Shown here piece after piece: positions 13,392 to 25,440 of a stretch of DNA of 32,000 bases (position 1 is its first letter; the number at the start of each line of letters is the position of its first letter). Position numbers and translations under genes: made by a program. The notes under the pieces were generated by a model. It made no database searches and had not been told where the DNA came from. It saw nothing but the letters and a program-made list of their open reading frames with translations. Source of the DNA: Synechococcus elongatus PCC 6301. GTDB taxonomy: Bacteria > Cyanobacteriota > Cyanobacteriia > Synechococcales > Synechococcaceae. The stretch lies in the NCBI RefSeq assembly GCF_000010065.1, contig NC_006576.1, positions 450,001 to 482,000 on the forward strand, read 5' to 3'.

Positions 13392-13787
13392 GCTCTTCTG
13401 AACCTAATCGTTCAAGTCAGCCAGCTTTGCATCAGCCAAAACTAATTTGCATTGCCTTTGAATTTTAAATACAAAACTGAAAACTCTAGGGATTTGATTG
13501 ACCAGCTCCCAACCCGTTGGGAAGTACCTGTCGATTTTAGGTTGGATGATCTATCACCTGGTTTTCCTCGAAAAACTCAAGCATTACTTTTAAGATAATC
13601 CCGAAAAATTCACTTAAGCAAGCTCAAATTCATCAATCAACCAAAATCGTTCTTAGGAGTAATTTTTGCTTAAAAACATTTCCTTAATAAATCAAGTGAT
13701 CCATTTTTATTTCAGAGAGCTAGCTTATGAGTCAAGGGCGAATCAAAAATTGCTCTTGAGAGTTAAAACACTTAATTGGAGTCTGTC
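13392..13787 (+). promoter_or_regulatory. Long AT-rich non-coding region holding the promoter/5' leader of the GG-peptide operon
   Basis: This ~395-nt stretch has no ORF in the track and very low GC, and lies directly upstream of the first peptide gene. I could not pin down exact -35/-10 elements with confidence. Confidence 0.5.
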
Positions 13788-14066
13788 ATGTCTCAATTCA
13801 TTAATTTGATCAACGATCAAAATGCTCAGGAACTTCTAGGCGGAACTACCTACAATCCACCGAGCTATCCTTATCCTTCGTATCCAAAACACAGCTGGTC
13901 GGTTAAGCAGTCTGTGTATGCACCAATCAAGTCCGTAGCAGTTAGTAGTTCTGACGCTACAGCATTCAATATTGGTGTTAAAAATCTCTTCAGCCCACAA
14001 ATTGCTACAGCTACTGCAATTTCTGGAGCTACATCGACAGTTATTGGCGGAACTGTATCTGCCTAA
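13788..14066 (+). CDS. ebfG1: Double-glycine-leader secreted small protein, paralogue 1 (EbfG1-like)
   Basis: ATG at 13788 follows GGAG (13778-13781); the track ORF begins at an upstream TTG at 13776. The 19-aa leader is MSQFINLINDQNAQELLGG, with hydrophobic residues at -4, -7, -12 and -15 relative to GG. The 73-aa mature part has no Cys and is S/T/A/I-rich. Confidence 0.85.
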   Translation: MSQFINLINDQNAQELLGGTTYNPPSYPYPSYPKHSWSVKQSVYAPIKSVAVSSSDATAFNIGVKNLFSPQIATATAISGATSTVIGGTVSA

Positions 14067-14110
14067 AGTTCAATTAGTGGAAAGCATTCGTAAACTAACA
14101 GGAGATAATC

Positions 14111-14401
14111 ATGTCTAAACTCATTAATACTATCGATGACAACCATGCCCAATCCCTTGTGGGAGGGAGTGGTTATTCCATTCCTACGTATCCCAAACAT
14201 CCTTATCCTAACTACTATGGAAAGCCGTCATCGAGCGTTCAGCAGTCGGTTTCAGCGCCGATTACTTCAATTGCTGGCAGCAGCTCTAATGCACTTGCAT
14301 TCAATATTGGATCGTTTAACTTGGCGAGTCCTCAAATTGCTAAAGCAACTGCTGTATCCAGTGCCACTTCACTTGTCTATGGTGGGACTGTTTCAGCTTA
14401 A
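14111..14401 (+). CDS. ebfG2: Double-glycine-leader secreted small protein, paralogue 2 (EbfG2-like)
   Basis: The ATG follows the RBS AGGAG. The leader MSKLINTIDDNHAQSLVGG has the same -4/-7/-12/-15 hydrophobic pattern. The mature part aligns with paralogues 1 and 3 (QSVSAPITS...AFNIG...SPQIAKATAVS.ATS.V.GGTVSA). Confidence 0.85.
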   Translation: MSKLINTIDDNHAQSLVGGSGYSIPTYPKHPYPNYYGKPSSSVQQSVSAPITSIAGSSSNALAFNIGSFNLASPQIAKATAVSSATSLVYGGTVSA

Positions 14402-14415
14402 CTAGGCTGACATAG

Positions 14416-14449
14416 TGAAATGCTCATTACAGAGTTGATGAGCATTTCA
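14416..14449 (+). promoter_or_regulatory. Perfect 12-bp stem-loop between peptide genes 2 and 3
   Basis: TGAAATGCTCAT (14416-14427) pairs with ATGAGCATTTCA (14438-14449) around a 10-nt loop. There is no clear U-tract downstream (TTACTCCTTC). Confidence 0.6.
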
Positions 14450-14478
14450 TTACTCCTTCACTTTATGAGGAACGAATT

Positions 14479-14754
14479 GTGAATCAGTGGCTTGAGTCTA
14501 TCAATGATGATACTGCTCAACAGCTCTTGGGCGGTAAATTCTGGGGGAATAAATGGGGATTATATAAGCCCTCTAAGCCGATCTTAGGAATTGGTCAGAG
14601 TGTGACATCTCCAATTCAATCAAGTGCGATTAGTATTTCTAGAGCTACCGCAATTAATATTTCTATATTTAGCAACAATAGTCCTCAGATTGCTACTGCA
14701 ACATCTATCTCTGGTTCAACTTCTTTTGTAGAGGGTGGAGCAGTTACAGCCTAA
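14479..14754 (+). CDS. ebfG3: Double-glycine-leader secreted small protein, paralogue 3 (EbfG3-like)
   Basis: The GTG start follows GAGG. The leader is MNQWLESINDDTAQQLLGG with the same hydrophobic spacing. The mature part shares GQSVTSPIQS...NSPQIATATSISGSTS.VEGGAVTA with paralogues 1 and 2. Confidence 0.8.
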   Translation: MNQWLESINDDTAQQLLGGKFWGNKWGLYKPSKPILGIGQSVTSPIQSSAISISRATAINISIFSNNSPQIATATSISGSTSFVEGGAVTA

Positions 14755-14901
14755 CCAAAAACTAATTAAAACAATATACTCATTAGACCTATAAATCTAC
14801 TTGTATTATGAACTTTTAAGTACACATTTAAACTATTTTATTTGCGATTATATTTCTTTAGTTTTATGTCTTGTTGTTCAATGTTGTTTGAGGGCATCGA
14901 T

Positions 14902-15150
14902 ATGCAAGTTGAATTTGATTTGATTACAGATTTGTCAGATGGGCAAGCTGAGATGGTGACAGGAGCATTATTGCAAACAGCCAATTCAGTAGCAGCAGCA
15001 ATTGCAAAATCAACTGCGATCGCTCCTACTGGGATTGCAATTAGTGCAGGAACTGTCGCCAATGCACTTTCTATTGCTCAGAATATTGGTGTGAGTACAG
15101 TCACATCACCTTCTATACGAGTCCCCATTAACGTAGCTGTCAATCTTTAG
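14902..15150 (+). CDS. ebfG4: Divergent GG-type (Gly-Ala) leader secreted small hydrophobic protein (EbfG4-like)
   Basis: The track ORF starts at 14842. ATG at 14902 follows GAGGG (14890-14894). The 22-aa leader MQVEFDLITDLSDGQAEMVTGA has V-4, A-7, L-12 and I-15. The 60-aa mature part is A/I/V/S/T-rich with no Cys. In-frame ATGs at 14866 and 14881 are alternative starts. Confidence 0.7.
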   Translation: MQVEFDLITDLSDGQAEMVTGALLQTANSVAAAIAKSTAIAPTGIAISAGTVANALSIAQNIGVSTVTSPSIRVPINVAVNL

Positions 15151-15182
15151 CCAGTGCGATCGCAAGTATTTGGACTCTGGAA

Positions 15183-15223
15183 ATTGAGGGTGGGTAATAC
15201 CACTCTCAATCTCTGATATTTTT
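15183..15223 (+). terminator. Candidate attenuator/partial terminator between the peptide genes and the exporter gene
   Basis: An 11-bp stem, ATTGAGGGTGG (15183-15193) with CCACTCTCAAT (15200-15210, one G-U), has a 6-nt loop. TTTTT (15219-15223) follows 8 nt downstream. Confidence 0.4.
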
Positions 15224-15244
15224 CATCCTTCACTCTTAAGTATC

Positions 15245-17389
15245 GTGAAATATGCATGTATTCGGCAACAAAGTGAAGAGGACTGTGGAGCGGCCTGCAT
15301 CGCAACAGTTGCAAAATACTATGGCCGTCACTTTGCACTCAATCGAGTACGGGAAATTGTCGGCACAGGTTCGCAGGGAACTTCTCTGTTAGGACTTCGT
15401 AGGGGTGCTGAATCTTTAGGATTCAATGCTCGTCAGGTAAGGGCTTCGTTGGAACTCATTGATCATTTAAAAGAAGCACCACTTCCAGCAATCATCCACT
15501 GGAAGGGTTATCACTGGGTGATTTTATATGGCCAAAGGGGAAAGCAATATATCATTGCAGACCCAGGGCTTGGCATACGCTACATCAATCGACATGAGTT
15601 ATTAACTAGCTGGAGTAATGGCGTTATGCTGCTACTTCAGCCAGATAGTGAGAAATTTTACAGTCAAGAAAATGATAAGAATGATAGCTGGATTCGCATT
15701 ATTCGACGGGTTTGGAACTTTAAAACACTCCTGATTCAAGTTGTCATCATTAATATTGTGATTGGTATTTTGGCACTATCAATGCCACTCATGATGCAGT
15801 TTTTAACAGATGATGTCTTGATTAGAAAGGATACACATCTCCTATTCACAGTTGCGATCGCAGTAATTGCGATGAATTTTTTTAGGAATATTATCAATCT
15901 AGTTCAATCTCATCTAGTTGGATATTTTGGCCAAAAGCTACAGCTAGATCTCATTTTGGAGTATGGTCATCGACTTCTCCATTTACCCATGGCTTATTTT
16001 GATAATCATCGCAGTGGAGAAGTGATTAGTCGAATTGGTGATATTCGGCGAATCAATGATCTAGTCTCAAAAATTGTACTTGGCCTGCCCAGCCAGTTCT
16101 TTATTGCCTTGATATCTCTATTCATCATGCTTCGTTACAGCTCAATTTTGACAGCTGCAGCGATTGCCGCATTTTTTGTCGTGACTCTTTTTAATTTAAT
16201 TTTTCTTCCTTTTTTACGACAAAAAAATAAGCAGCTAATTGCTGAATCGTCCGAGAATCAAGGCTTCCTTGTTGAAACTTTTCGTGGAGCTGTCTTGCTG
16301 AAGACAACTCAAGCGATCCATCAAGCATGGGAAGAGTATCAGCAAAACTTTGGCCGACTTTCTTTTTTATCTTGGGGAGCACTCAAGCTAGATATTTATG
16401 CCGGAACTACAACCGATTTTCTATCAACTATAACTAATGTTAGTATTCTCTGGCTAGGCAGTAGCTTGGTCATTGATGGCACGCTAAGTATTGGCCAACT
16501 GCTAGCCTTTAGTGGCTTTAGTGGTAACTTATTAGGCTTTTTATCTGGAACAGTTGCACTTGCTGACGAATTTTTAATTTCGCAGGTTGTCATTCAACGT
16601 TTATCAGAAGTTTTAAGTTCAACCCCAGAGGATACTATCTCCTCTCATAAGCCTTGGATTCAAATTCCTGATGATACTAACATCATCTGCAAGAATGTTA
16701 CTTTCCACCATCCAGGTCGTGTTGATCTACTGAGGAATTTTGATCTAACAATTCCAGGGGGCCTAGTCACTGCTCTAATTGGGCAATCTGGTTGTGGTAA
16801 AAGTACTCTTGCCAAGCTGATTTCTGGCCTCTATCATCTTGACTCTGGAAACATTCAATTTGGCATTTATAACCAACAAGACATTGCTTTAGATTGCTTA
16901 CGTCAACAGGTTGTTTTGGTTCCTCAAGATGCTCATTTCTGGAGTCGTTCTATTGTCGAAAATTTCAAATTTTCTCATCCCAATACATCATTTGAAAATA
17001 TAGTTAAAGCTTGTCGAATCACAATGGCAGATGAATTTATCAATGAACTTCCTGACAAATATCAAACCGTATTAGGTGAATTTGGGGCTAATTTATCGGG
17101 GGGGCAGAGGCAAAGGCTTGCCTTGGCAAGAGCGATTATCAATAATCCACCTGTCTTGATCCTTGACGAGTCTACTAGCGCTCTTGATCCCGTCATGGAA
17201 AGTCAGATCCTTGATAGCCTACTAGCATTTAGAAGAGGTAAAACGACAATTATTATCAGCCACCGGCCACGAGTAATTCAACGTTCTGATTGGATTGCAT
17301 TCCTTGAGAAGGGAGAATTAAAAGCTCAAGGACGTCCAAATGACCTGAAATCACTTGTTGGTGATCATCTTAAGTTTATTGCCCCTTAA
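15245..17389 (+). CDS. pteB: C39 peptidase-domain ABC exporter (bacteriocin/double-glycine peptide processing and export; PteB-like)
   Basis: The 714-aa ORF starts at GTG. The C39 catalytic residues are present: Cys in QQSEEDCGAAC, His in GYHWVILYG and Asp in IIADPG. A six-helix TMD region follows, then Walker A GQSGCGKST, signature LSGGQRQR, Walker B VLILDEST and H-loop ISHR. Confidence 0.92.
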   Translation: MKYACIRQQSEEDCGAACIATVAKYYGRHFALNRVREIVGTGSQGTSLLGLRRGAESLGFNARQVRASLELIDHLKEAPLPAIIHWKGYHWVILYGQRGKQYIIADPGLGIRYINRHELLTSWSNGVMLLLQPDSEKFYSQENDKNDSWIRIIRRVWNFKTLLIQVVIINIVIGILALSMPLMMQFLTDDVLIRKDTHLLFTVAIAVIAMNFFRNIINLVQSHLVGYFGQKLQLDLILEYGHRLLHLPMAYFDNHRSGEVISRIGDIRRINDLVSKIVLGLPSQFFIALISLFIMLRYSSILTAAAIAAFFVVTLFNLIFLPFLRQKNKQLIAESSENQGFLVETFRGAVLLKTTQAIHQAWEEYQQNFGRLSFLSWGALKLDIYAGTTTDFLSTITNVSILWLGSSLVIDGTLSIGQLLAFSGFSGNLLGFLSGTVALADEFLISQVVIQRLSEVLSSTPEDTISSHKPWIQIPDDTNIICKNVTFHHPGRVDLLRNFDLTIPGGLVTALIGQSGCGKSTLAKLISGLYHLDSGNIQFGIYNQQDIALDCLRQQVVLVPQDAHFWSRSIVENFKFSHPNTSFENIVKACRITMADEFINELPDKYQTVLGEFGANLSGGQRQRLALARAIINNPPVLILDESTSALDPVMESQILDSLLAFRRGKTTIIISHRPRVIQRSDWIAFLEKGELKAQGRPNDLKSLVGDHLKFIAP

Positions 17390-17430: not shown

Positions 17431-19134
17431 ATGAACGTCAGCGATCAATTAATTAACTGCTATCTAGAAATTGAGAGAAACTACTTAAATGGTCATTTGG
17501 AAGCAGCAGAAGAATTATCAGATCAGCTAGTCAAACAACAACCCCAAAATCCTCATTTAAGACTTCTGAGAGGTCACATATACTATAGCCTTGGTGAATT
17601 AAAAAAGGCCCGATATGAATATGAGTTGACTAGGGGGTTGACTGCCGATGAAGATTTGATTGAACAGTCACTTAACGGCTTAGAGCGATGCGATAGTCTT
17701 CATCCTGACAGAGCTGCTAGCTCAAGCGATGCAACCATTATTTTTCCCCGTCATGCAGTCATTGCTGCTTCCAGTCTTGAGCAGTCTTTCTTAAAGAACC
17801 GGGTTGAGGAGGAGACTAGGGATTATCAGCTGACAACTCAAAATGCTGATGAACCGTCTTTGTCTAGTTTTTCTACTCCTACTTCTGATACTGCCAGTGT
17901 AATTCAAGTGGTCAGTGATGATGAGATTCCAGAAGATTTACATCTCTTGCAGGCTGATGAGTTTCTTCCCCCTGTTAACCATTGGTTTCAAATTGCAGGT
18001 ATCAGCTTAGTTCTGGGATTCATTGGGACAATTATTCTTACTTCATTTCTTAAGTATAAAGTCGTTGTTAAGGCACCTGCTCTAATTCGTCCGATTGGGG
18101 AAACACGGCTAGTTCAAGCCGCTGTTGAAGGTAAAGTCCGTCAGATTGCTGTTCGTTCTAACCAAGAAGTCCAGCAAGGTGATCCAATTATTGTTATTGA
18201 TGACTCGCAGCAAATTACCAAGCGAGACCAACTGATTGACAGTATTGCTAAAAATCAACTTAAACTTCAGCAGATTGAGTCTCAAAAAGCTGCGATCGCA
18301 GAGGAAATGCTAGCTGAATCCAATAAAGTAGCGCGGGGCATTGATGTGAATCAAGCTGATATTCAAACGGCAGAGGCTAACTTGGCGCTCGCAGCAGATG
18401 AATATTCTCGCTATCAAACTCTCTCTAATGCTGGGGCGATCGCTGATCTCTTAGTGCAAGAGAAGCTAGCCAGTTTTCGGGTAGCACAAGCCAATTTGAG
18501 CCGCGCGCGCGAGCTAACAGCTCAGACTGAGGAACAGGGTTTAGCCACCCAAGCAAGACTCCGACAGATGCAAGACCAGCTAGCTCAACAAGAATCGGAA
18601 ACGCTACAACAGATCAAAGTGGAGCAAAAAGAACTCCAACAAATGAATATCAACCTAGCAAATACTGTTGTTCGTGCCCCAATTTCTGGGATTATTCAGT
18701 CCATTAACCTGCGCAATCCTGATCAAGTAGTCGGCGTTGGCCAGGAAGTTGCCCGCATTTTTCCAACTCAGAGTGGCTTGACGATTAAAGCATTGGTTCC
18801 TTCACAGAACATTTTGCCCGTCGCACTAGGACAACGTGTGCAACTCCGGATTGCCGCCTGCCCCTATCCGGACTTTGGCACCCTTGATGGCAAAGTCCAG
18901 GCGATCGCACCCGATTCCGGCGGTTCATCTAGTTCGGCAGCACAGACCAATGAACCCGTTGCCGCGAATAGTCAAGCCTATGAAGTGACGATCAAGCCTG
19001 AAGATCGTTCTCTAACTGATGGTCAACGGGTTTGTAAAATCCGTCCTGGGATGGATGCCGAAGCCGACATTATTACCAATGAAGAGACGGTACTCAAATT
19101 TATGCTGAGGAAGGCTCGTTTGCTATGGCGATAA
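17431..19134 (+). CDS. HlyD-family membrane fusion/accessory protein with a 184-aa N-terminal TPR-like cytoplasmic extension
   Basis: The 567-aa ORF has ATG after GGAGG. The TM helix WFQIAGISLVLGFIGTIILTSFL starts at residue 185. It is followed by a typical HlyD lipoyl/coiled-coil/beta-barrel pattern (VVKAPALIRP...VEGKVRQIAV...GDPIIVIDD; VVRAPISGIIQSI). The N-terminus has a TPR-like LRLLRGHIYYSLGELKKARYEYE. Confidence 0.88.
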   Translation: MNVSDQLINCYLEIERNYLNGHLEAAEELSDQLVKQQPQNPHLRLLRGHIYYSLGELKKARYEYELTRGLTADEDLIEQSLNGLERCDSLHPDRAASSSDATIIFPRHAVIAASSLEQSFLKNRVEEETRDYQLTTQNADEPSLSSFSTPTSDTASVIQVVSDDEIPEDLHLLQADEFLPPVNHWFQIAGISLVLGFIGTIILTSFLKYKVVVKAPALIRPIGETRLVQAAVEGKVRQIAVRSNQEVQQGDPIIVIDDSQQITKRDQLIDSIAKNQLKLQQIESQKAAIAEEMLAESNKVARGIDVNQADIQTAEANLALAADEYSRYQTLSNAGAIADLLVQEKLASFRVAQANLSRARELTAQTEEQGLATQARLRQMQDQLAQQESETLQQIKVEQKELQQMNINLANTVVRAPISGIIQSINLRNPDQVVGVGQEVARIFPTQSGLTIKALVPSQNILPVALGQRVQLRIAACPYPDFGTLDGKVQAIAPDSGGSSSSAAQTNEPVAANSQAYEVTIKPEDRSLTDGQRVCKIRPGMDAEADIITNEETVLKFMLRKARLLWR

Positions 19135-19544: not shown

Positions 19545-21359
19545 TTAACGATCGCTGGGCCCGACTGGAACACCTAGGTTGGGAGTTGGCTGCGTTGGAG
19601 CCGGGACAATCAAGCCAATGCCAGCACCTAAAAGCATGGCAAGGGCTATCGCCCCCAGCCAAGTTCGCCAAGAGAGATTGAAGCTAGGTTCAACCGCTCG
19701 ATCCACGATCTCAGGAGCTACTACTGTGTCCGCAGGCTTAGGTTCCTGAACGGTGGCGGTGGCGAGTGGCAGCTCCAATGGTGGCGACACAACTGGACTG
19801 ATTAGGCTCGGTGCGACCTCCGTCAGTTGGCAACAGAATGCTGCCACTGAAATATTGTCGTGTCCGGTCAGCTGGCGGGCGCGATCGATCCAGCGCTGGC
19901 CCCAGTCGGCCAACGATAATTCCCCTCGGAGCACAGCACCCACATCTACATGGCCAAGGGTCTCAACCAGACCGTAGTCACTCAGACCATCTGAGCAGAG
20001 CAGCAAAATGCCTGGCTCGAGGACGCGAAAGGATTGAACAGGGATCTGCAGTCCCGTCGAAGCCATCACCCCCATCGCCTGGGAGAGGGCAGCCCCTTGC
20101 GTTAAGCGCAGGGCCGAACGATAGGCTAGAAAGCCCTGAGTCACTGTCTGAGTAGCGACATCGTGGTCAAGGGTGAGTCGCTCTGTCAGGTGGGGAGTCA
20201 ACCAATAGGCGCGGCTATCCCCAATGTGGGCGATTGTCAGCTCGGGCTGGGGTCCTGGTGTTTTCAAAGCCAGAACGAGGGTTGTCCCCATGCGGGCTAA
20301 GACTTCTGCATCTTGTTGGTTGCGGCTGGCGATCAGATCGTTAATGATCCGCAGGCTGATGCGCAGTTGCTCAGCCAGGCTCTCCACAGGTCGTTCGGGC
20401 GCTTGACGATGCTCCAATAGCTGCGGGACTTGGAGTTTAAGACCAGCGATCGCAGTTTGGCTGGCTACTTCCCCACCCACATGACCACCGAGACCATCAC
20501 AGACCGCAATCCAATCTGGCTGTGGTGATTCGGCAAGGTCGGTTGCTAGGGGATAGCAACTGTCTTCGTTATCGCCGCCGCGCCAGCCGGGGTCAGTCAG
20601 GGCGATGGCCTCTACTGTCAAAGACTGCTGCTGGCTGTAGTGCTGCCACGCCTGCCGGAGGATGGCCTGACTCTCGGCTAAATCAGCCTCTGGGGTTTGG
20701 AGGCGCTGCACCATTGGGGCGATCGCAGCGGCAGCCTCGGGATGCAACAGCGGCAAGAGGCTCTTGAGGACCTGTCCCAAACGGCGCAAACTGGCTGGCT
20801 CAGTCTCTTGGGGATTAGCTATCCCCAGTGGATTCTCATGGTCGTCCAGCAACTCCAGCAGGCGCAACTCACCCGCACAAACGCGGATATTCATCAATTT
20901 CAGGACACTACTAGCCACGCCTTGGCAGATCAGGGGCTCCCACAACAGCAGGATCTGCTCAATCCAGTGAATTTGGAGGGCCGTTGAAGCTGTCTTAAGC
21001 GCATTGACAAGACTGGGCCAGAGATGACCTTCGCGATTGAGGGGAACGCGCTCGAGCAGAATTGCTGTTTCACCATCCTCTAAGGGCACCAGCGCATAGA
21101 GAGTGGGTAGGTGCCGCTGGTGCTCAAACAGCCAGAGGTAGGGTTGCAGAGATTCCGGTAGATGCTCTGGGAGCTGAGGCGGGCGATCAGGATCCAGATC
21201 AAACCAAATTTGGGGCGCTACAACTTGATAGCGATCGCTCACCCTCGTTCCTGGGGGCACCTGTGCTGCAGCGGCTCCACTGACCCAAAGAAACCGATTG
21301 GCAAGTGGCTCAACTTGACGCGGCAACGTATAGTGCTCTGCGAGAAAATTCTGGGTCAT
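19545..21359 (-). CDS. Membrane-anchored PP2C-family Ser/Thr phosphatase with an N-terminal kinase-like (probably pseudokinase) domain
   Basis: The 604-aa ORF has PP2C motifs in the middle: NEDSCY, IAVCDGLGGHVGGEVAS, LLLCSDGLSD and TGHDNISVA. The C-terminal TM helix is WRTWLGAIALAMLLGAGIGLIV. The N-terminal ~250 aa begins RVSDRYQVVAP, like a kinase N-lobe, but lacks the GxGxxG, HRD and DFG motifs. Confidence 0.85.
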   Translation of the reverse strand: MTQNFLAEHYTLPRQVEPLANRFLWVSGAAAAQVPPGTRVSDRYQVVAPQIWFDLDPDRPPQLPEHLPESLQPYLWLFEHQRHLPTLYALVPLEDGETAILLERVPLNREGHLWPSLVNALKTASTALQIHWIEQILLLWEPLICQGVASSVLKLMNIRVCAGELRLLELLDDHENPLGIANPQETEPASLRRLGQVLKSLLPLLHPEAAAAIAPMVQRLQTPEADLAESQAILRQAWQHYSQQQSLTVEAIALTDPGWRGGDNEDSCYPLATDLAESPQPDWIAVCDGLGGHVGGEVASQTAIAGLKLQVPQLLEHRQAPERPVESLAEQLRISLRIINDLIASRNQQDAEVLARMGTTLVLALKTPGPQPELTIAHIGDSRAYWLTPHLTERLTLDHDVATQTVTQGFLAYRSALRLTQGAALSQAMGVMASTGLQIPVQSFRVLEPGILLLCSDGLSDYGLVETLGHVDVGAVLRGELSLADWGQRWIDRARQLTGHDNISVAAFCCQLTEVAPSLISPVVSPPLELPLATATVQEPKPADTVVAPEIVDRAVEPSFNLSWRTWLGAIALAMLLGAGIGLIVPAPTQPTPNLGVPVGPSDR

Positions 21360-22366: not shown

Positions 22367-23455
22367 TCAAACAATGGCAAGACTGGTGAGGTCGCCCTGA
22401 AAACCGGTGATTTCAATCAGGAGATCACGCTCAGCTTGAAACCCAGCTAAGTCATCATTGAAAGCCACAAAAGTTCGCTGCTCGATTTGAAAGGTTGCCG
22501 CACCATTGGCCATGAAACGATCAGGCGTCAGCACCGCCACGAGTGACTCTGGGTCGAGGCTGCTCACTGTACCCACGTTACTGATTTCTGTCGCACTGAC
22601 AGAATTAGGGCCAACCAAGCGATCGCTGCCGATTTGAAAGTCGGTTATCTGATCAAAACCTGATAGTTGTGAATCTGCGATCGCTCGGTAGAGAAACTGA
22701 TCTTGCCCTGCTCCACCAGTCAATGTATCCGCGCCGAGTTCCCCAATTAGATTGTCATCCCCATTTCCAGCAGTTAGCAAATCGTTGCCGTTAGTACCGA
22801 TCAGCGTAAAAGCCTCGCTACTACTGAGCTGGTTATCATCATTACCCTTGACGATAGACCGTGCTTCACTGATCGCGATCGCGGTAGCTGGGGAACCGGA
22901 ACTCACTACAACCTGCTGAGCGATCGCAGTGACTTGAAGAGCGTTGGGCAAACTCGAATCATCACCAGTCACTTGAGCAAGCAAGGCTTGCACGGTTGGC
23001 AAAGCGATTGGGTTTTTAGAGAAGTCATAAGCTTCAATTTCCTCAAGGCTATCTAGTGATCTGGTGAATAGATCAGCCACTAGAACTTTATTGAGAAAAG
23101 TCTGAGCATCTCGGCTGCCCTCTTCAATCCCCTCAACAATCGCGATCGCTAAATTGGCTAAGCTGAGCCGGCCAGATTCCAACTCTTTGACATAGAAATC
23201 TTGACCGATGGGATCAGCGTCGCGGTTCAGAATTGTTTGGAAGAGCGTATTGACAGCCTCAGCGGCAGACAAAGAGCTGAATCGCAAGAAAGACTCTACT
23301 GACTCACCAAAGGCTTCAGCGATCGCCCCGTAGTTAAGGGTGCTGAGATTGTCCTGAACGATCACATCCCAAAATTTTTGACCTGCAGGATCTGCTGGCC
23401 GACCATAAAAAGCAACATAGAGCTGCTGAGCAGAAGTAATCTTCAGATTAGCCAT
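22367..23455 (-). CDS. Secreted DUF4214-like plus RTX (hemolysin-type Ca-binding repeat) protein
   Basis: In this 362-aa ORF the N-terminal half (YVAFYGRPADPAGQKFW...LFQTILNRDADPIGQDFYV) looks like DUF4214. Residues ~220-255 (GTNGNDLLTAGNGDDNLIGELGADTLTGGAGQDQF) are GGxGxD nonapeptide repeats. There is no N-terminal signal peptide, consistent with type I secretion. Confidence 0.75.
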   Translation of the reverse strand: MANLKITSAQQLYVAFYGRPADPAGQKFWDVIVQDNLSTLNYGAIAEAFGESVESFLRFSSLSAAEAVNTLFQTILNRDADPIGQDFYVKELESGRLSLANLAIAIVEGIEEGSRDAQTFLNKVLVADLFTRSLDSLEEIEAYDFSKNPIALPTVQALLAQVTGDDSSLPNALQVTAIAQQVVVSSGSPATAIAISEARSIVKGNDDNQLSSSEAFTLIGTNGNDLLTAGNGDDNLIGELGADTLTGGAGQDQFLYRAIADSQLSGFDQITDFQIGSDRLVGPNSVSATEISNVGTVSSLDPESLVAVLTPDRFMANGAATFQIEQRTFVAFNDDLAGFQAERDLLIEITGFQGDLTSLAIV

Positions 23456-23961: not shown

Positions 23962-25440
23962 CTAGCGGCCACCCACAGTGATGGCATCAACCTTGAGGTG
24001 GGGCTGGCCCACCGTCACGTAGACGCTGCCGCTGACTGAGCCGCAGAAGCCCGGTGCGAGACCAAGATCGTTCGAGCACATGGAAATGCGCTGCATGATC
24101 TCGGTTGCCTCACCAATCAAAGTTGCACCCTTCAGCGGCTTTGTGATGCGCCCATTCTCAATCAAATAAGCTTCATCAACGGCAAAGTTAAACTGACCCG
24201 TTGCGCCAACACTACCGCCACCCATCTTCTTGCAGTAGATGCCGCGATCGATTGATCCCAAGAGATCCTCAAAGCGATGAGGTCCCGGGGCAATGTAGGT
24301 GTTGCGCATCCGCGAAGCCGCTGCGTAGGTGTAGTTACTCCGGCGACCACTGCCAGTTCGGGGTTGGCCTGTCCGCAGTTCCCCCGCGCGATCAGCGATG
24401 AAGTTTTTGAGGATGCCATTTTCGATCAGCAAGGTGCGCTGCACCGGCATGCCTTCGTCATCCATGTCAAGGGTGCCAAAGGCATCGGGCGACAGGCCCT
24501 CATCCCAGGCTGTGACACTGCTGTGCGCGATCGCTTCTCCTTTCTTGTCTTTGAACGGGGTGGTACCGCGCTCAATTTGCGTGGTTTCCAGCAAGTGTCC
24601 ACAGGCTTCGTGGAAAATCACGCCACCAAACTGGTTTGCCAGAATCACCGGATAGGTGCCTGACTCTACAAAATCGGCGTAGAGCATTTGGCCCGCCGAC
24701 TCTGCGACTTCAGCGGCATCCGCTTCAGAATCCCACGATCGCAAAAAGTCAGGATTGCTCGTGTCTCCCACCCGTTTGCCAATCGAGGCACGGTAGCTGC
24801 CATCCGCACAAAGTAGGTTGTAGCCCACGGATTGAGTGAGGCGAATATCTCGCGCAAAGGTCCCATCACTGGCTGCAACCAACACCTCTTGCCAGTCACG
24901 AAAATAGGCGGCCCGGCGAGACTGCGCATGCTTCGCCTGTCGTTGCAGGCGATCGCTCGCGGACAGCAACAGATCACCCATCTCCGCCATGGAGCTACAG
25001 CGGCTTAGCCACTGATCTTTTTGGCGCAGTTGGCCATAGTCGCGCAGCGGTTCCAGATTGACCGGTGGGACAAGGGATTGCGCACTGGGTAATTGCAGGC
25101 CGAGGATCCCTAAAGCTTGTTCGAGCGATCGCTTCAGCCCCTCATAGGACAAGTCATTGGTGCTGACATAGCAATCCGTGGTACCTCGAAACACCCGCAC
25201 CCCTGCACCACTCGCTAGCCGTGGTGACAGGCTGGTCACTGCATCCTCTTCGACTAGGCAGCTAATGTACTGAACGCGCTCGAGGAAAAACTCGACAAAG
25301 CCTGCGCCGGCAGCCCGTCCAAGTCCTAGCAGTTGTGCCAGTGCCGGCGTCCAGCTGCTATCAAAACGCTGGCGATCGCCGGCCGCCAGATCAGCAGCCA
25401 ACGTTAGGGAAAGGGGCGGTGCAACAACCATGGCAAGCAC
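23962..25440 (-). CDS. tldD: TldD-type metallopeptidase (TldD/PmbA family, 'microcin-processing peptidase'-like)
   Basis: The 492-aa ORF has the HExxxH site in [13 protein letters not shown] Gly-rich C-terminal beta region ([23 protein letters not shown]) is typical of the family. Confidence 0.85.

What the first reader, a model, noticed from the sequence alone, without database searches (positions are those of the whole stretch)
13788..14754. Three tandem paralogous GG-leader proteins share a conserved, Cys-free, amyloid-like core and a C-terminal GG(T/A)V(S/T)A tail
My hand alignment of the three products shows 19-aa leaders of identical length. They share the conserved mature core QSV.(A/S)PI.S.A.S.S.A.A(F/I)NI...(N)..SPQIA.AT(A/S)(I/V)S(G/S)(A/S)TS.V.GG(T/A)V(S/T)A. 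The N-termini of the mature parts are divergent. Alternating small-polar and hydrophobic residues, with no Cys and few charged residues, are typical of beta-solenoid or functional-amyloid subunits rather than antimicrobial peptides. A second conserved Gly-Gly lies five residues from the C-terminus in all three. It could be a structural turn, or, speculatively, a second processing or recognition site. Tandem duplication with a divergent N-terminal module suggests sub-functionalisation.
Basis: partly seen in the sequence, partly recalled or inferred. Interest (0 to 1): 0.7.

Follow-up and report, generated by a model that had tools for sequence, protein, structure and literature searches.

The report
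Known cyanobacterial biofilm amyloid genes ebfG1-3

Summary
Three tandem ORFs (13788-14066, 14111-14401, 14479-14754, + strand) encode paralogues with 19-aa double-glycine leaders, a divergent N-terminal module, a conserved Cys-free core and a GG(T/A)V(S/T)A tail.

They are EbfG1-3 of Synechococcus elongatus. ORF2 is 100% identical to an S. elongatus protein. The published N-terminal mass-spectrometry peptides of secreted EbfG1, EbfG2 and EbfG4 occur exactly in the window ORFs. EbfG4, PteB (C39-peptidase ABC exporter), HlyD and EbfE follow in the published order.

Parnasa 2016 showed leader cleavage, PteB-dependent secretion and the need for these proteins in biofilm formation. Frenkel 2023 showed amyloid formation by EbfG1-3, with the hotspot A-(F/I)-N-I-(G/S). 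The amyloid reading is therefore correct and already known.

What I add:
- The family has only about 17-18 members among 5.8 billion proteins, every named one from S. elongatus.
- In the C-terminal "GG", only the first Gly is invariant. The second is S, N or P in several orthologues, and one strain lost the tail to a stop codon. This argues against a second double-glycine processing site.
- I found no internal repeat and no confident fold, so a beta-solenoid has no support.
- A covarying RNA hairpin sits between ebfG2 and ebfG3.

The parts
13675..13787 (+). Conserved region upstream of ebfG1, probably promoter-proximal sequence and 5' UTR, including the GGAG Shine-Dalgarno at 13778-13781
   Evidence: Across six S. 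elongatus-complex loci the roughly 115 nt before the ATG are almost invariant. Sequence further upstream is unrelated, because the upstream neighbour genes differ. The consensus scan found no sigma-70-like promoter here. Function is inferred.
13788..14066 (+). ebfG1: 19-aa GG leader (13788-13844) and 73-aa mature protein (13845-14063)
   Evidence: ORF. The mature N-terminus TTYNPPSYPYPSYPK equals the published MS peptide of secreted EbfG1. It is identical to P0009, 'hypothetical protein [Synechococcus elongatus]'.
14111..14401 (+). ebfG2: 19-aa GG leader and 77-aa mature protein, which contains the LAFNIG amyloid hotspot
   Evidence: 100% identical to P0001 of S. elongatus. The MS peptide SGYSIPTYPK matches exactly. 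LAFNIG was modelled as a steric zipper, and EbfG2 fibrils were seen by TEM.
14413..14452 (+). RNA hairpin between ebfG2 and ebfG3 (17-bp stem, 6-nt loop)
   Evidence: MFE -25.2 kcal/mol, z = -4.07, with 0 of 200 shuffles folding as well. It is present at the same place in four other lineages. Of 14 consensus pairs, 3 show compensatory double changes. No T-run follows it, so it is not a classical terminator.
14479..14754 (+). ebfG3: GTG start, 19-aa GG leader and 72-aa mature protein
   Evidence: ORF. Its core is 59% identical to the EbfG1 core. It differs at two residues from the S. elongatus cluster representative P0012.
14902..15150 (+). ebfG4 (Synpcc7942_1134): 22-aa Gly-Ala leader and 60-aa mature protein, a published cell-surface and matrix protein that is not amyloidogenic on its own
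   Evidence: The MS peptide LLQTANSVAAAIAK matches exactly after the GA. The profile-profile comparison with EbfG1-3 is weak: probability 6%, with only 18 columns around NIG...SP.I aligned.
15245..17389 (+). pteB (Synpcc7942_1133): ABC exporter with a C39 peptidase domain, which cleaves the GG leader and exports EbfG1-4
   Evidence: Pfam Peptidase_C39 3.5e-36, ABC_membrane and ABC_tran. NCBIfam bacteriocin-type peptide cleavage/export ABC transporters. Published Cys-to-Ala mutant.
17431..19134 (+). hlyD-type membrane-fusion protein of the type-I-like secretion system
   Evidence: Pfam HlyD_3 1.3e-16 and HlyD_D23. Named as part of the EbfG secretion system in PMC12647202.
23962..25440 (-). Most likely ebfE (Synpcc7942_1127), a PmbA/TldD-type homologue of microcin-processing peptidases that is required for EbfG secretion
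   Evidence: Pfam PmbA_TldD domains 1 to 3, with 3.3e-60 for the C-terminal domain. Role as published. The assignment rests on domain type and position in the cluster.

Best explanation
The three genes are ebfG1, ebfG2 and ebfG3, the first three cistrons of the four-gene ebfG operon of Synechococcus elongatus (PCC 7942-type strain).

**Mechanism**
1. Each precursor carries a 19-aa double-glycine leader.
2. The adjacent exporter PteB, working with the HlyD-type adaptor and needing the PmbA/TldD-like EbfE, removes the leader after Gly-Gly and exports the 72-77-aa mature protein.
3. Outside the cell, the Ser/Thr/Ala-rich, beta-prone core self-assembles into amyloid-type fibrils. The hotspot A-(F/I)-N-I-(G/S) lies in this core.
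4. These fibrils, together with the surface and matrix protein EbfG4, build the biofilm matrix.
5. An extracellular inhibitor represses transcription of the operon in wild type. Only about a quarter of the cells express it strongly.

**Shown by published experiments:** leader cleavage, PteB dependence, the biofilm requirement, and amyloid formation in a heterologous system.

**Inferred:**
- Amyloid is the native state in the cyanobacterial matrix.
- The conserved C-terminal Gly is a structural turn before a last short strand.
- The hairpin between ebfG2 and ebfG3 modulates the relative expression or stability of the cistrons.
For: **Identity**
- ORF2 is 100% identical to an S. elongatus protein. 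EbfG1 is identical to P0009.
- The published peptides TTYNPPSYPYPSYPK, SGYSIPTYPK and LLQTANSVAAAIAK occur exactly, directly after GG, GG and GA, in the window ORFs.
- The gene order ebfG1-4, then a C39-peptidase ABC exporter, then HlyD, with a PmbA/TldD gene further on, matches the published locus.

**Function (literature)**
- Deleting ebfG1-4, or changing all four GG motifs to AA, abolishes biofilm. The PteB Cys-to-Ala mutant blocks secretion (PMC4997328).
- EbfG1-3 are positive for Congo red and AmyTracker in C-DAG, and EbfG2 forms fibrils under TEM (PMC9981879).

**My analyses**
- The core is conserved and under purifying selection, dN/dS 0.02-0.29.
- AlphaFold2 predicts only beta strands in the core, at residues 51-65 and 75-89, at low confidence.
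- All 18 family members keep a 19-aa leader and the N-I hotspot.
Against: - Amyloid formation was shown only in E. coli C-DAG with a CsgA signal and a His tag. It has not been shown in the native matrix.
- The AlphaFold2 monomer model is uninformative: pLDDT 50.6, pTM 0.18.
- I ran no amyloid predictor of my own.
- The window's EbfG3 differs at two residues from the database representative, so the exact strain is not pinned down.
- The scan of species-representative genomes returned nothing, not even the source genome. I took this as a limit of the tool, or masking, rather than as evidence.
Confidence: 0.93

Rival explanations
1. They are class II microcin or bacteriocin precursors. The secreted peptides would kill or inhibit competing bacteria, and any aggregation would be incidental or a storage form, as with microcin E492.
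For: - They have a double-glycine leader, a dedicated C39-peptidase ABC exporter and a HlyD adaptor.
- Wang et al. 2011 catalogued such clusters, including those of S. elongatus PCC 7942, as putative bacteriocin clusters. That paper is also credited with finding the three unannotated ORFs.
- Microcins that also form amyloid or biofilm are known (PMC13188072).
Against: - The genetic phenotype is loss of biofilm.
- PMC13188072 states that these cyanobacterial proteins did not display antibacterial activity.
- No ORF that looks like an immunity gene shows up among the small genes, though I did not test this formally.
- There is no Pfam or NCBIfam bacteriocin family match.
Confidence: 0.04
2. The C-terminal Gly-Gly is a second maturation or recognition site. 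PteB, or the PmbA/TldD-like EbfE, would remove the last four residues, or the tail would be a recognition tag.
For: - GG followed by a 4-residue tail is present in all three window proteins and in all EbfG1- and EbfG2-type orthologues except P0006.
- The first Gly is invariant in all 18 members.
- EbfE is required for secretion, yet its substrate step is not defined in the texts I read.
Against: - The second Gly is Ser in P0005, in P0017 and in the L005 EbfG3-type orthologue. It is Asn in P0018 and in the L006/L007 EbfG3-type orthologues, and Pro in P0006.
- One strain ends the EbfG3-type protein at ...NGI through a TAG stop, with relic MLA codons after it.
- I saw no leader-like amphipathic helix with D..AQ.L before this GG. 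This rests on reading the sequence, not on a test.
- His6 tags fused to the C-terminus were still detected on EbfG2 fibrils in E. coli.
- The tail continues the alternating polar/hydrophobic pattern. AlphaFold2 places a turn at YGG and a short strand at residues 93-95, at low confidence.
Confidence: 0.06
3. The mature proteins adopt a defined beta-solenoid or beta-helix fold made of repeated rungs, like curli CsgA, rather than forming a generic cross-beta steric-zipper amyloid.
For: - The core shows an alternating small-polar/hydrophobic pattern.
- Two segments look loosely similar: S.PI.S.A.SSS.A.AFNIG and SPQIA.ATA.S.ATS.V.GG.
- AlphaFold2 predicts a long beta hairpin.
Against: - The two halves align with an hhalign score of 11.8, against 9.0 +/- 2.3 (maximum 14.0) for column-shuffled controls, so the similarity is not significant.
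- The model is low confidence (pLDDT 50.6).
- There is no Pfam curlin or other repeat match.
- No relative has a solved structure.
- About 54 core residues would give at most two rungs.
Confidence: 0.1

Closest known systems
EbfG1-3 / ebfG operon of Synechococcus elongatus PCC 7942 (Parnasa et al. 2016, PMC4997328; Frenkel et al. 2023, PMC9981879)
   Same: It is the same locus. The published peptides match, and the gene order is the same: ebfG4, pteB, hlyD and ebfE. The GG leaders and the A-Phi-N-I-Pi hotspot are the same.
   Different: Nothing essential. The window's EbfG3 differs at two residues from the database cluster representative.
Class II microcins with amyloid or biofilm roles (microcin E492 of Klebsiella; MccAB1 of Acinetobacter baumannii, PMC13188072)
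   Same: These are small proteins with a double-glycine leader, exported by a C39-peptidase ABC transporter plus a membrane-fusion protein. They self-assemble into amyloid, and for MccAB1 this promotes biofilm.
   Different: - There is no detectable sequence homology.
- EbfGs are reported to lack antibacterial activity.
- No immunity gene is evident.
- The 'GAV' motif that paper notes in EbfG3 is absent from the 16 non-identical family members of A5 and from the EbfG3-type ORFs of L004-L007.
Curli (CsgA/CsgB) and other functional bacterial amyloids
   Same: Both are secreted matrix amyloid subunits. Frenkel et al. propose a division between nucleating subunits and other components.
   Different: - Curli uses a different secretion route, Sec plus CsgG/E/F, where EbfG uses a type-I-like PCAT.
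- There are no CsgA-type imperfect repeats.
- There is no Pfam match.
Cyanobacterial double-glycine peptide clusters (Wang et al. 2011 groups; the Anabaena asr5139-alr5148 cluster)
   Same: They share the short-type C39 ABC exporter plus HlyD, with several tandem GG-leader precursors.
   Different: The mature EbfG1-3 sequence has no relatives outside S. elongatus. A profile search of 1.84 billion representatives gave only four true hits. Candidate Anabaena counterparts are only 16-21% identical to EbfG1-3.

Membership tests
EbfG1-3 (S. elongatus biofilm-enabling GG-motif proteins) | Sequence identity with the published proteins and their MS peptides | tested here: met
   TTYNPPSYPYPSYPK and SGYSIPTYPK lie immediately after the GG in ORF1 and ORF2. 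ORF2 is 100% identical to S. elongatus protein P0001.
EbfG1-3 (S. elongatus biofilm-enabling GG-motif proteins) | Position immediately upstream of ebfG4 (Synpcc7942_1134), pteB and hlyD | tested here: met
   ebfG4 at 14902-15150 carries the LLQTANSVAAAIAK peptide. The C39 ABC exporter is at 15245-17389 and HlyD at 17431-19134.
EbfG1-3 (S. elongatus biofilm-enabling GG-motif proteins) | Amyloid hotspot A-(F/I)-N-I-(G/S) | tested here: met
   AFNIG in EbfG1, AFNIG in EbfG2 and AINIS in EbfG3. The motif is as defined.
EbfG1-3 (S. elongatus biofilm-enabling GG-motif proteins) | Forms amyloid fibrils and is required for biofilm | not testable with these tools
   Taken from the literature. My AlphaFold2 model is low confidence.
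Double-glycine-leader peptides exported by peptidase-containing ABC transporters (class II microcin or bacteriocin type) | N-terminal leader ending in GG or GA, with an adjacent C39-peptidase ABC exporter and a membrane-fusion protein | tested here: met
   19-aa leaders with D..AQ.L.GG. Peptidase_C39 3.5e-36. HlyD_3.
Double-glycine-leader peptides exported by peptidase-containing ABC transporters (class II microcin or bacteriocin type) | Antimicrobial activity and a cognate immunity gene | tested here: inconclusive
   No candidate immunity ORF stands out in 13392-15245, but I ran no formal test. The literature states there is no antibacterial activity.
Curli-type functional amyloid (CsgA) | Imperfect internal repeats forming stacked strand-loop-strand rungs; curlin repeat domain | tested here: not met
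   No Pfam hit. The internal half-against-half hhalign score is 11.8, against shuffles at 9.0 +/- 2.3.
Curli-type functional amyloid (CsgA) | Sec signal peptide and a CsgG/E/F export apparatus | tested here: not met
   The leader is of the double-glycine type and the neighbouring exporter is a PCAT with HlyD.

The most novel reading that the evidence does not exclude
Two features that the papers I read do not describe could be regulatory layers of matrix assembly.

1. **C-terminal Gly and tail.** An invariant Gly is followed by a five-residue alternating tail in 16 of the 18 aligned members. This could be a recognition or trimming site for the PmbA/TldD-like EbfE, whose step in EbfG secretion is undefined in the texts I read. 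It could also be a cap that controls fibril elongation.
2. **Intercistronic hairpin.** The covarying hairpin between ebfG2 and ebfG3 could set the ratio of strongly amyloidogenic subunits (EbfG1/2) to EbfG3/4 within one transcript.
Probability: 0.1. Interest if true: 0.4.

Novelty: already known. Interest (0 to 1): 0.12.

Why it matters
As a discovery it does not matter much. The genes, their processing, their secretion system, their role in biofilm and their amyloid propensity were published in 2016-2023.

It is useful as a check on method: a reader working from sequence alone inferred "secreted functional amyloid, not antibiotic", and experiments agree.

Three small additions may help people working on the system:
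- **Restricted family.** Fewer than 20 distinct sequences turned up in billions of proteins, every named one from the S. elongatus complex. The family evolves much faster than its exporter: core identity is 62-98% against 89-95% for PteB.
- **C-terminal motif.** The second Gly of the C-terminal GG, and the "GAV" motif of EbfG3, are not conserved. This argues against reading either as a functional site.
- **Untested RNA elements.** A conserved intercistronic hairpin and an almost invariant stretch of about 115 nt upstream are candidate regulatory elements.

Tried and rejected
- **Pfam and NCBIfam scans of the four small proteins.** No family matched.
- **Scan of species-representative genomes with the mature profile.** 83 pattern hits, none confirmed by tblastn, and the source genome itself was not returned. 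I treated this as uninformative, perhaps because of masking or the low-complexity filter.
- **Profile search of 1.84 billion representatives.** Five hits. Four are true family members. The fifth (P0007, 906 aa) is a repetitive protein matched only on 'FSPQLAT' repeats, and I rejected it as spurious.
- **Homology of EbfG4 with EbfG1-3.** hhalign probability 6%, with an 18-column local match only. Homology is not established, although the spacing of AP..., NIG and SP.I is similar.
- **Internal duplication or solenoid repeat.** Not significant against shuffles.
- **AlphaFold2 with an 18-sequence alignment.** pLDDT 50.6. This is too low for a fold search, so I ran none.
- **PDB sequence search.** No hit at E <= 1.
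- **Published C-terminal peptides of EbfG1-3.** I searched the main text and supplement of Parnasa 2016 and found none.
- **Comparative-genomics paper on S. elongatus strains.** It does not mention ebfG.
- **Sigma-70 promoter and terminator consensus scans.** Nothing above the shuffle expectation in 13392-15300.
Full report
**1. What is in the sequence**

The + strand between 13788 and 14754 carries three ORFs of 92, 96 and 91 codons.
- The first has an in-frame TTG four codons upstream. A GGAG lies 7-10 nt before the ATG at 13788, and this arrangement is conserved in every related locus. The ATG is therefore the start.
- All three precursors have a 19-residue leader of the form M-x-x-[FLW]-[IL]-x-x-I-x-D-x-x-A-Q-x-L-[LV]-G-G.
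- After the leader comes a divergent Tyr/Pro- or Trp/Lys-rich module of about 20-25 residues. Only 2 of its 25 aligned columns are identical.
- A 54-residue core follows, with 28 of 54 columns identical.
- The mature parts contain no Cys and 0-1 acidic and 3-5 basic residues. Nearly half the residues are Ser, Thr, Ala or Gly.
- Pairwise BLASTP of the mature parts gives E = 3e-16 and 9e-15.

**2. What surrounds it**

- Directly downstream lies a fourth small gene (14902-15150). It has a 22-residue leader ending in Gly-Ala and a 60-residue Ala/Ile/Ser-rich mature part.
- Next is a 714-aa ABC exporter with an N-terminal C39 peptidase domain (15245-17389; Pfam Peptidase_C39 3.5e-36).
- Then comes a 567-aa HlyD-type membrane-fusion protein (17431-19134).
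- Further on, on the minus strand, is a PmbA/TldD-family peptidase (23962-25440).
- Upstream are ChaC and an M1 aminopeptidase, which are housekeeping genes.

**3. Identification**

- ORF2 is 100% identical to a protein that NCBI labels 'hypothetical protein [Synechococcus elongatus]'. ORF1 is identical to P0009 from the same species.
- Parnasa et al. 2016 (PMC4997328) describe four small GG-motif proteins, EbfG1-4. EbfG1-3 were previously unannotated ORFs upstream of Synpcc7942_1134.
- These three strings occur exactly, immediately after GG, GG and GA, in window ORFs 1, 2 and 4.

The window is therefore the ebfG-pteB-hlyD region of S. elongatus. The finding is EbfG1-3, the exporter is PteB, and the PmbA/TldD gene is most likely EbfE.

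**4. How it works (published, not tested here)**

- Deleting ebfG1-4 in a biofilm-proficient background abolishes biofilm. Changing a single GG motif to AA impairs it partly, least for EbfG3. The quadruple mutant abolishes it.
- The four genes are co-transcribed.
- The catalytic Cys of PteB is needed both for biofilm and for EbfG accumulation in the medium.
- Frenkel et al. 2023 (PMC9981879) predicted amyloid hotspots with the motif A-(F/I)-N-I-(G/S). They showed Congo-red and AmyTracker phenotypes for EbfG1-3, but not EbfG4, in the E. coli C-DAG system. They also saw immunogold-labelled EbfG2 fibrils by TEM.
- Later papers treat EbfG1-3 as amyloid-prone matrix components secreted by a type-I-like system made of PteB, HlyD and EbfE.
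- A 2026 paper on Acinetobacter microcins cites these proteins as a parallel, states that they lack antibacterial activity, and notes a 'GAV' motif in EbfG3.

**5. What I could add**

*(a) Distribution.*
- A profile of the three mature parts, searched against 1.84 billion representatives, found five proteins at E <= 0.001. One of them is spurious.
- A profile of 11 members, searched against 5.8 billion proteins, found 17. Every one with a name comes from S. elongatus.
- The loci I retrieved are all syntenic: two or three EbfG1-3-type genes, an EbfG4-type gene, PteB and HlyD. The upstream neighbour is either ChaC or CorA.
- This extends the 2016 statement that the mature proteins have no homologues in other cyanobacteria. 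It also agrees with the failed BLAST search in Anabaena.

*(b) Evolution.*
- Orthologues are under purifying selection, with core dN/dS 0.02-0.29.
- They diverge much faster than PteB. Core identity is 62-98%, against 89-95% for PteB.
- The N-terminal module varies most and includes indels. In one lineage it has three Cys per protein.

*(c) The C-terminal GG.*
- Across 18 members the first Gly is invariant. The second Gly is not.
- It is Ser in P0005, P0017 and the L005 EbfG3-type orthologue. It is Asn in P0018 and the L006/L007 EbfG3-type orthologues. It is Pro in P0006, whose tail is also three residues longer.
- In strain GCA_036630085 the EbfG3-type gene stops at ...NGI through a TAG codon, and relic M-L-A codons follow the stop.
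- The tail keeps the alternating pattern of the core. AlphaFold2 puts a turn at Y-G-G and a short strand after it, at low confidence.
- C-terminal His tags stayed on EbfG2 fibrils in E. coli.
- Together this favours a structural turn over a second double-glycine cleavage site. The 'GAV' of EbfG3 is confined to the PCC 7942-type sequence.

*(d) Fold.*
- No relative has a solved structure.
- AlphaFold2 with the 18-sequence alignment gives pLDDT 50.6 and a helix in the leader (residues 10-16). It also gives two long strands (51-65 and 75-89) joined by the stretch from G-S-F-N-L to S-P-Q. This is compatible with a beta-prone core but is no evidence for a defined fold.
- A test for an internal two-fold repeat scored 11.8, against 9.0 +/- 2.3 for column-shuffled controls. 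The beta-solenoid idea has no support from the sequence.

*(e) EbfG4.*
- It shares only a short local similarity with EbfG1-3 (NIG, five residues, then SP.I). The hhalign probability is 6%.
- Common ancestry is plausible from position and leader, but the mature sequence does not demonstrate it.

**6. Noticed nearby**

- The 77-nt spacer between ebfG2 and ebfG3 holds a 17-bp hairpin at 14413-14452 (-25.2 kcal/mol, z = -4.07). The hairpin is present in all five lineages I compared. In the most divergent one, three of the 14 consensus pairs changed on both sides and stayed paired, while the loop varies freely.
- No T-run follows the hairpin, and a four-gene transcript is documented. It is therefore more likely a stabiliser, a processing site or a partial attenuator than a full terminator.
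- The roughly 115 nt before ebfG1 are almost invariant across lineages whose upstream genes differ. This fits the promoter and 5' UTR used in the published reporter.

**7. Verdict**

- The feature is already known, so interest is low.
- The residual novel possibilities are a role for the invariant C-terminal Gly and tail, perhaps linked to EbfE, and a regulatory role for the intercistronic hairpin. Both are untested, and I put them together at about 10%.

Noticed in passing
window 14413-14452 (+), between ebfG2 and ebfG3: A strong 17-bp RNA hairpin (-25.2 kcal/mol, z = -4.07) is conserved at the same position in four other S. elongatus-complex loci. Three of its pairs show compensatory changes, and the loop varies. 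No T-run follows it. It may act as an intra-operon stabiliser, processing site or attenuator.
   Followed up: partly
window 13675-13787 (+), upstream of ebfG1: About 115 nt before the ebfG1 start are almost invariant across six lineages, while sequence further upstream is unrelated. The block includes an imperfect inverted repeat, TCAAGGGC-N12-GCTCTTGA, at about 13732-13759. It is a candidate promoter, operator or 5' UTR for the inhibitor-responsive regulation.
   Followed up: partly
L003 654-944 and 989-1285: In one metagenomic S. elongatus-like lineage, the EbfG1- and EbfG2-type proteins each carry three Cys residues in the N-terminal Tyr/Pro module. The core stays Cys-free. The family is therefore not Cys-free throughout, and the N-terminal module could be disulphide-linked there.
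   Followed up: no
L004 7001-7603 (S. elongatus GCA_036630085.1): This strain has only two EbfG1-3-type genes. One is a divergent 82-aa member (P0006) that lacks the Tyr/Pro module and ends ...YGPSVNSKIV. The other is an EbfG3-type gene cut short at ...NGI by a TAG stop, with relic tail codons after it.
   Followed up: partly
window 22367-23455 (-) and 19545-21359 (-): Two further genes lie between hlyD and the PmbA/TldD gene. One encodes a 362-aa protein with DUF4214 and RTX calcium-binding repeats, a possible further type-I secretion substrate. The other encodes a 604-aa PP2C-like phosphatase. I did not examine their relation to the ebfG system.
   Followed up: no
Genome-contig scan: The species-representative genome scan returned no confirmed relative, not even the S. 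elongatus source locus. This suggests the region is masked there, or that the low-complexity filter removes it. It should not be read as absence.
   Followed up: no
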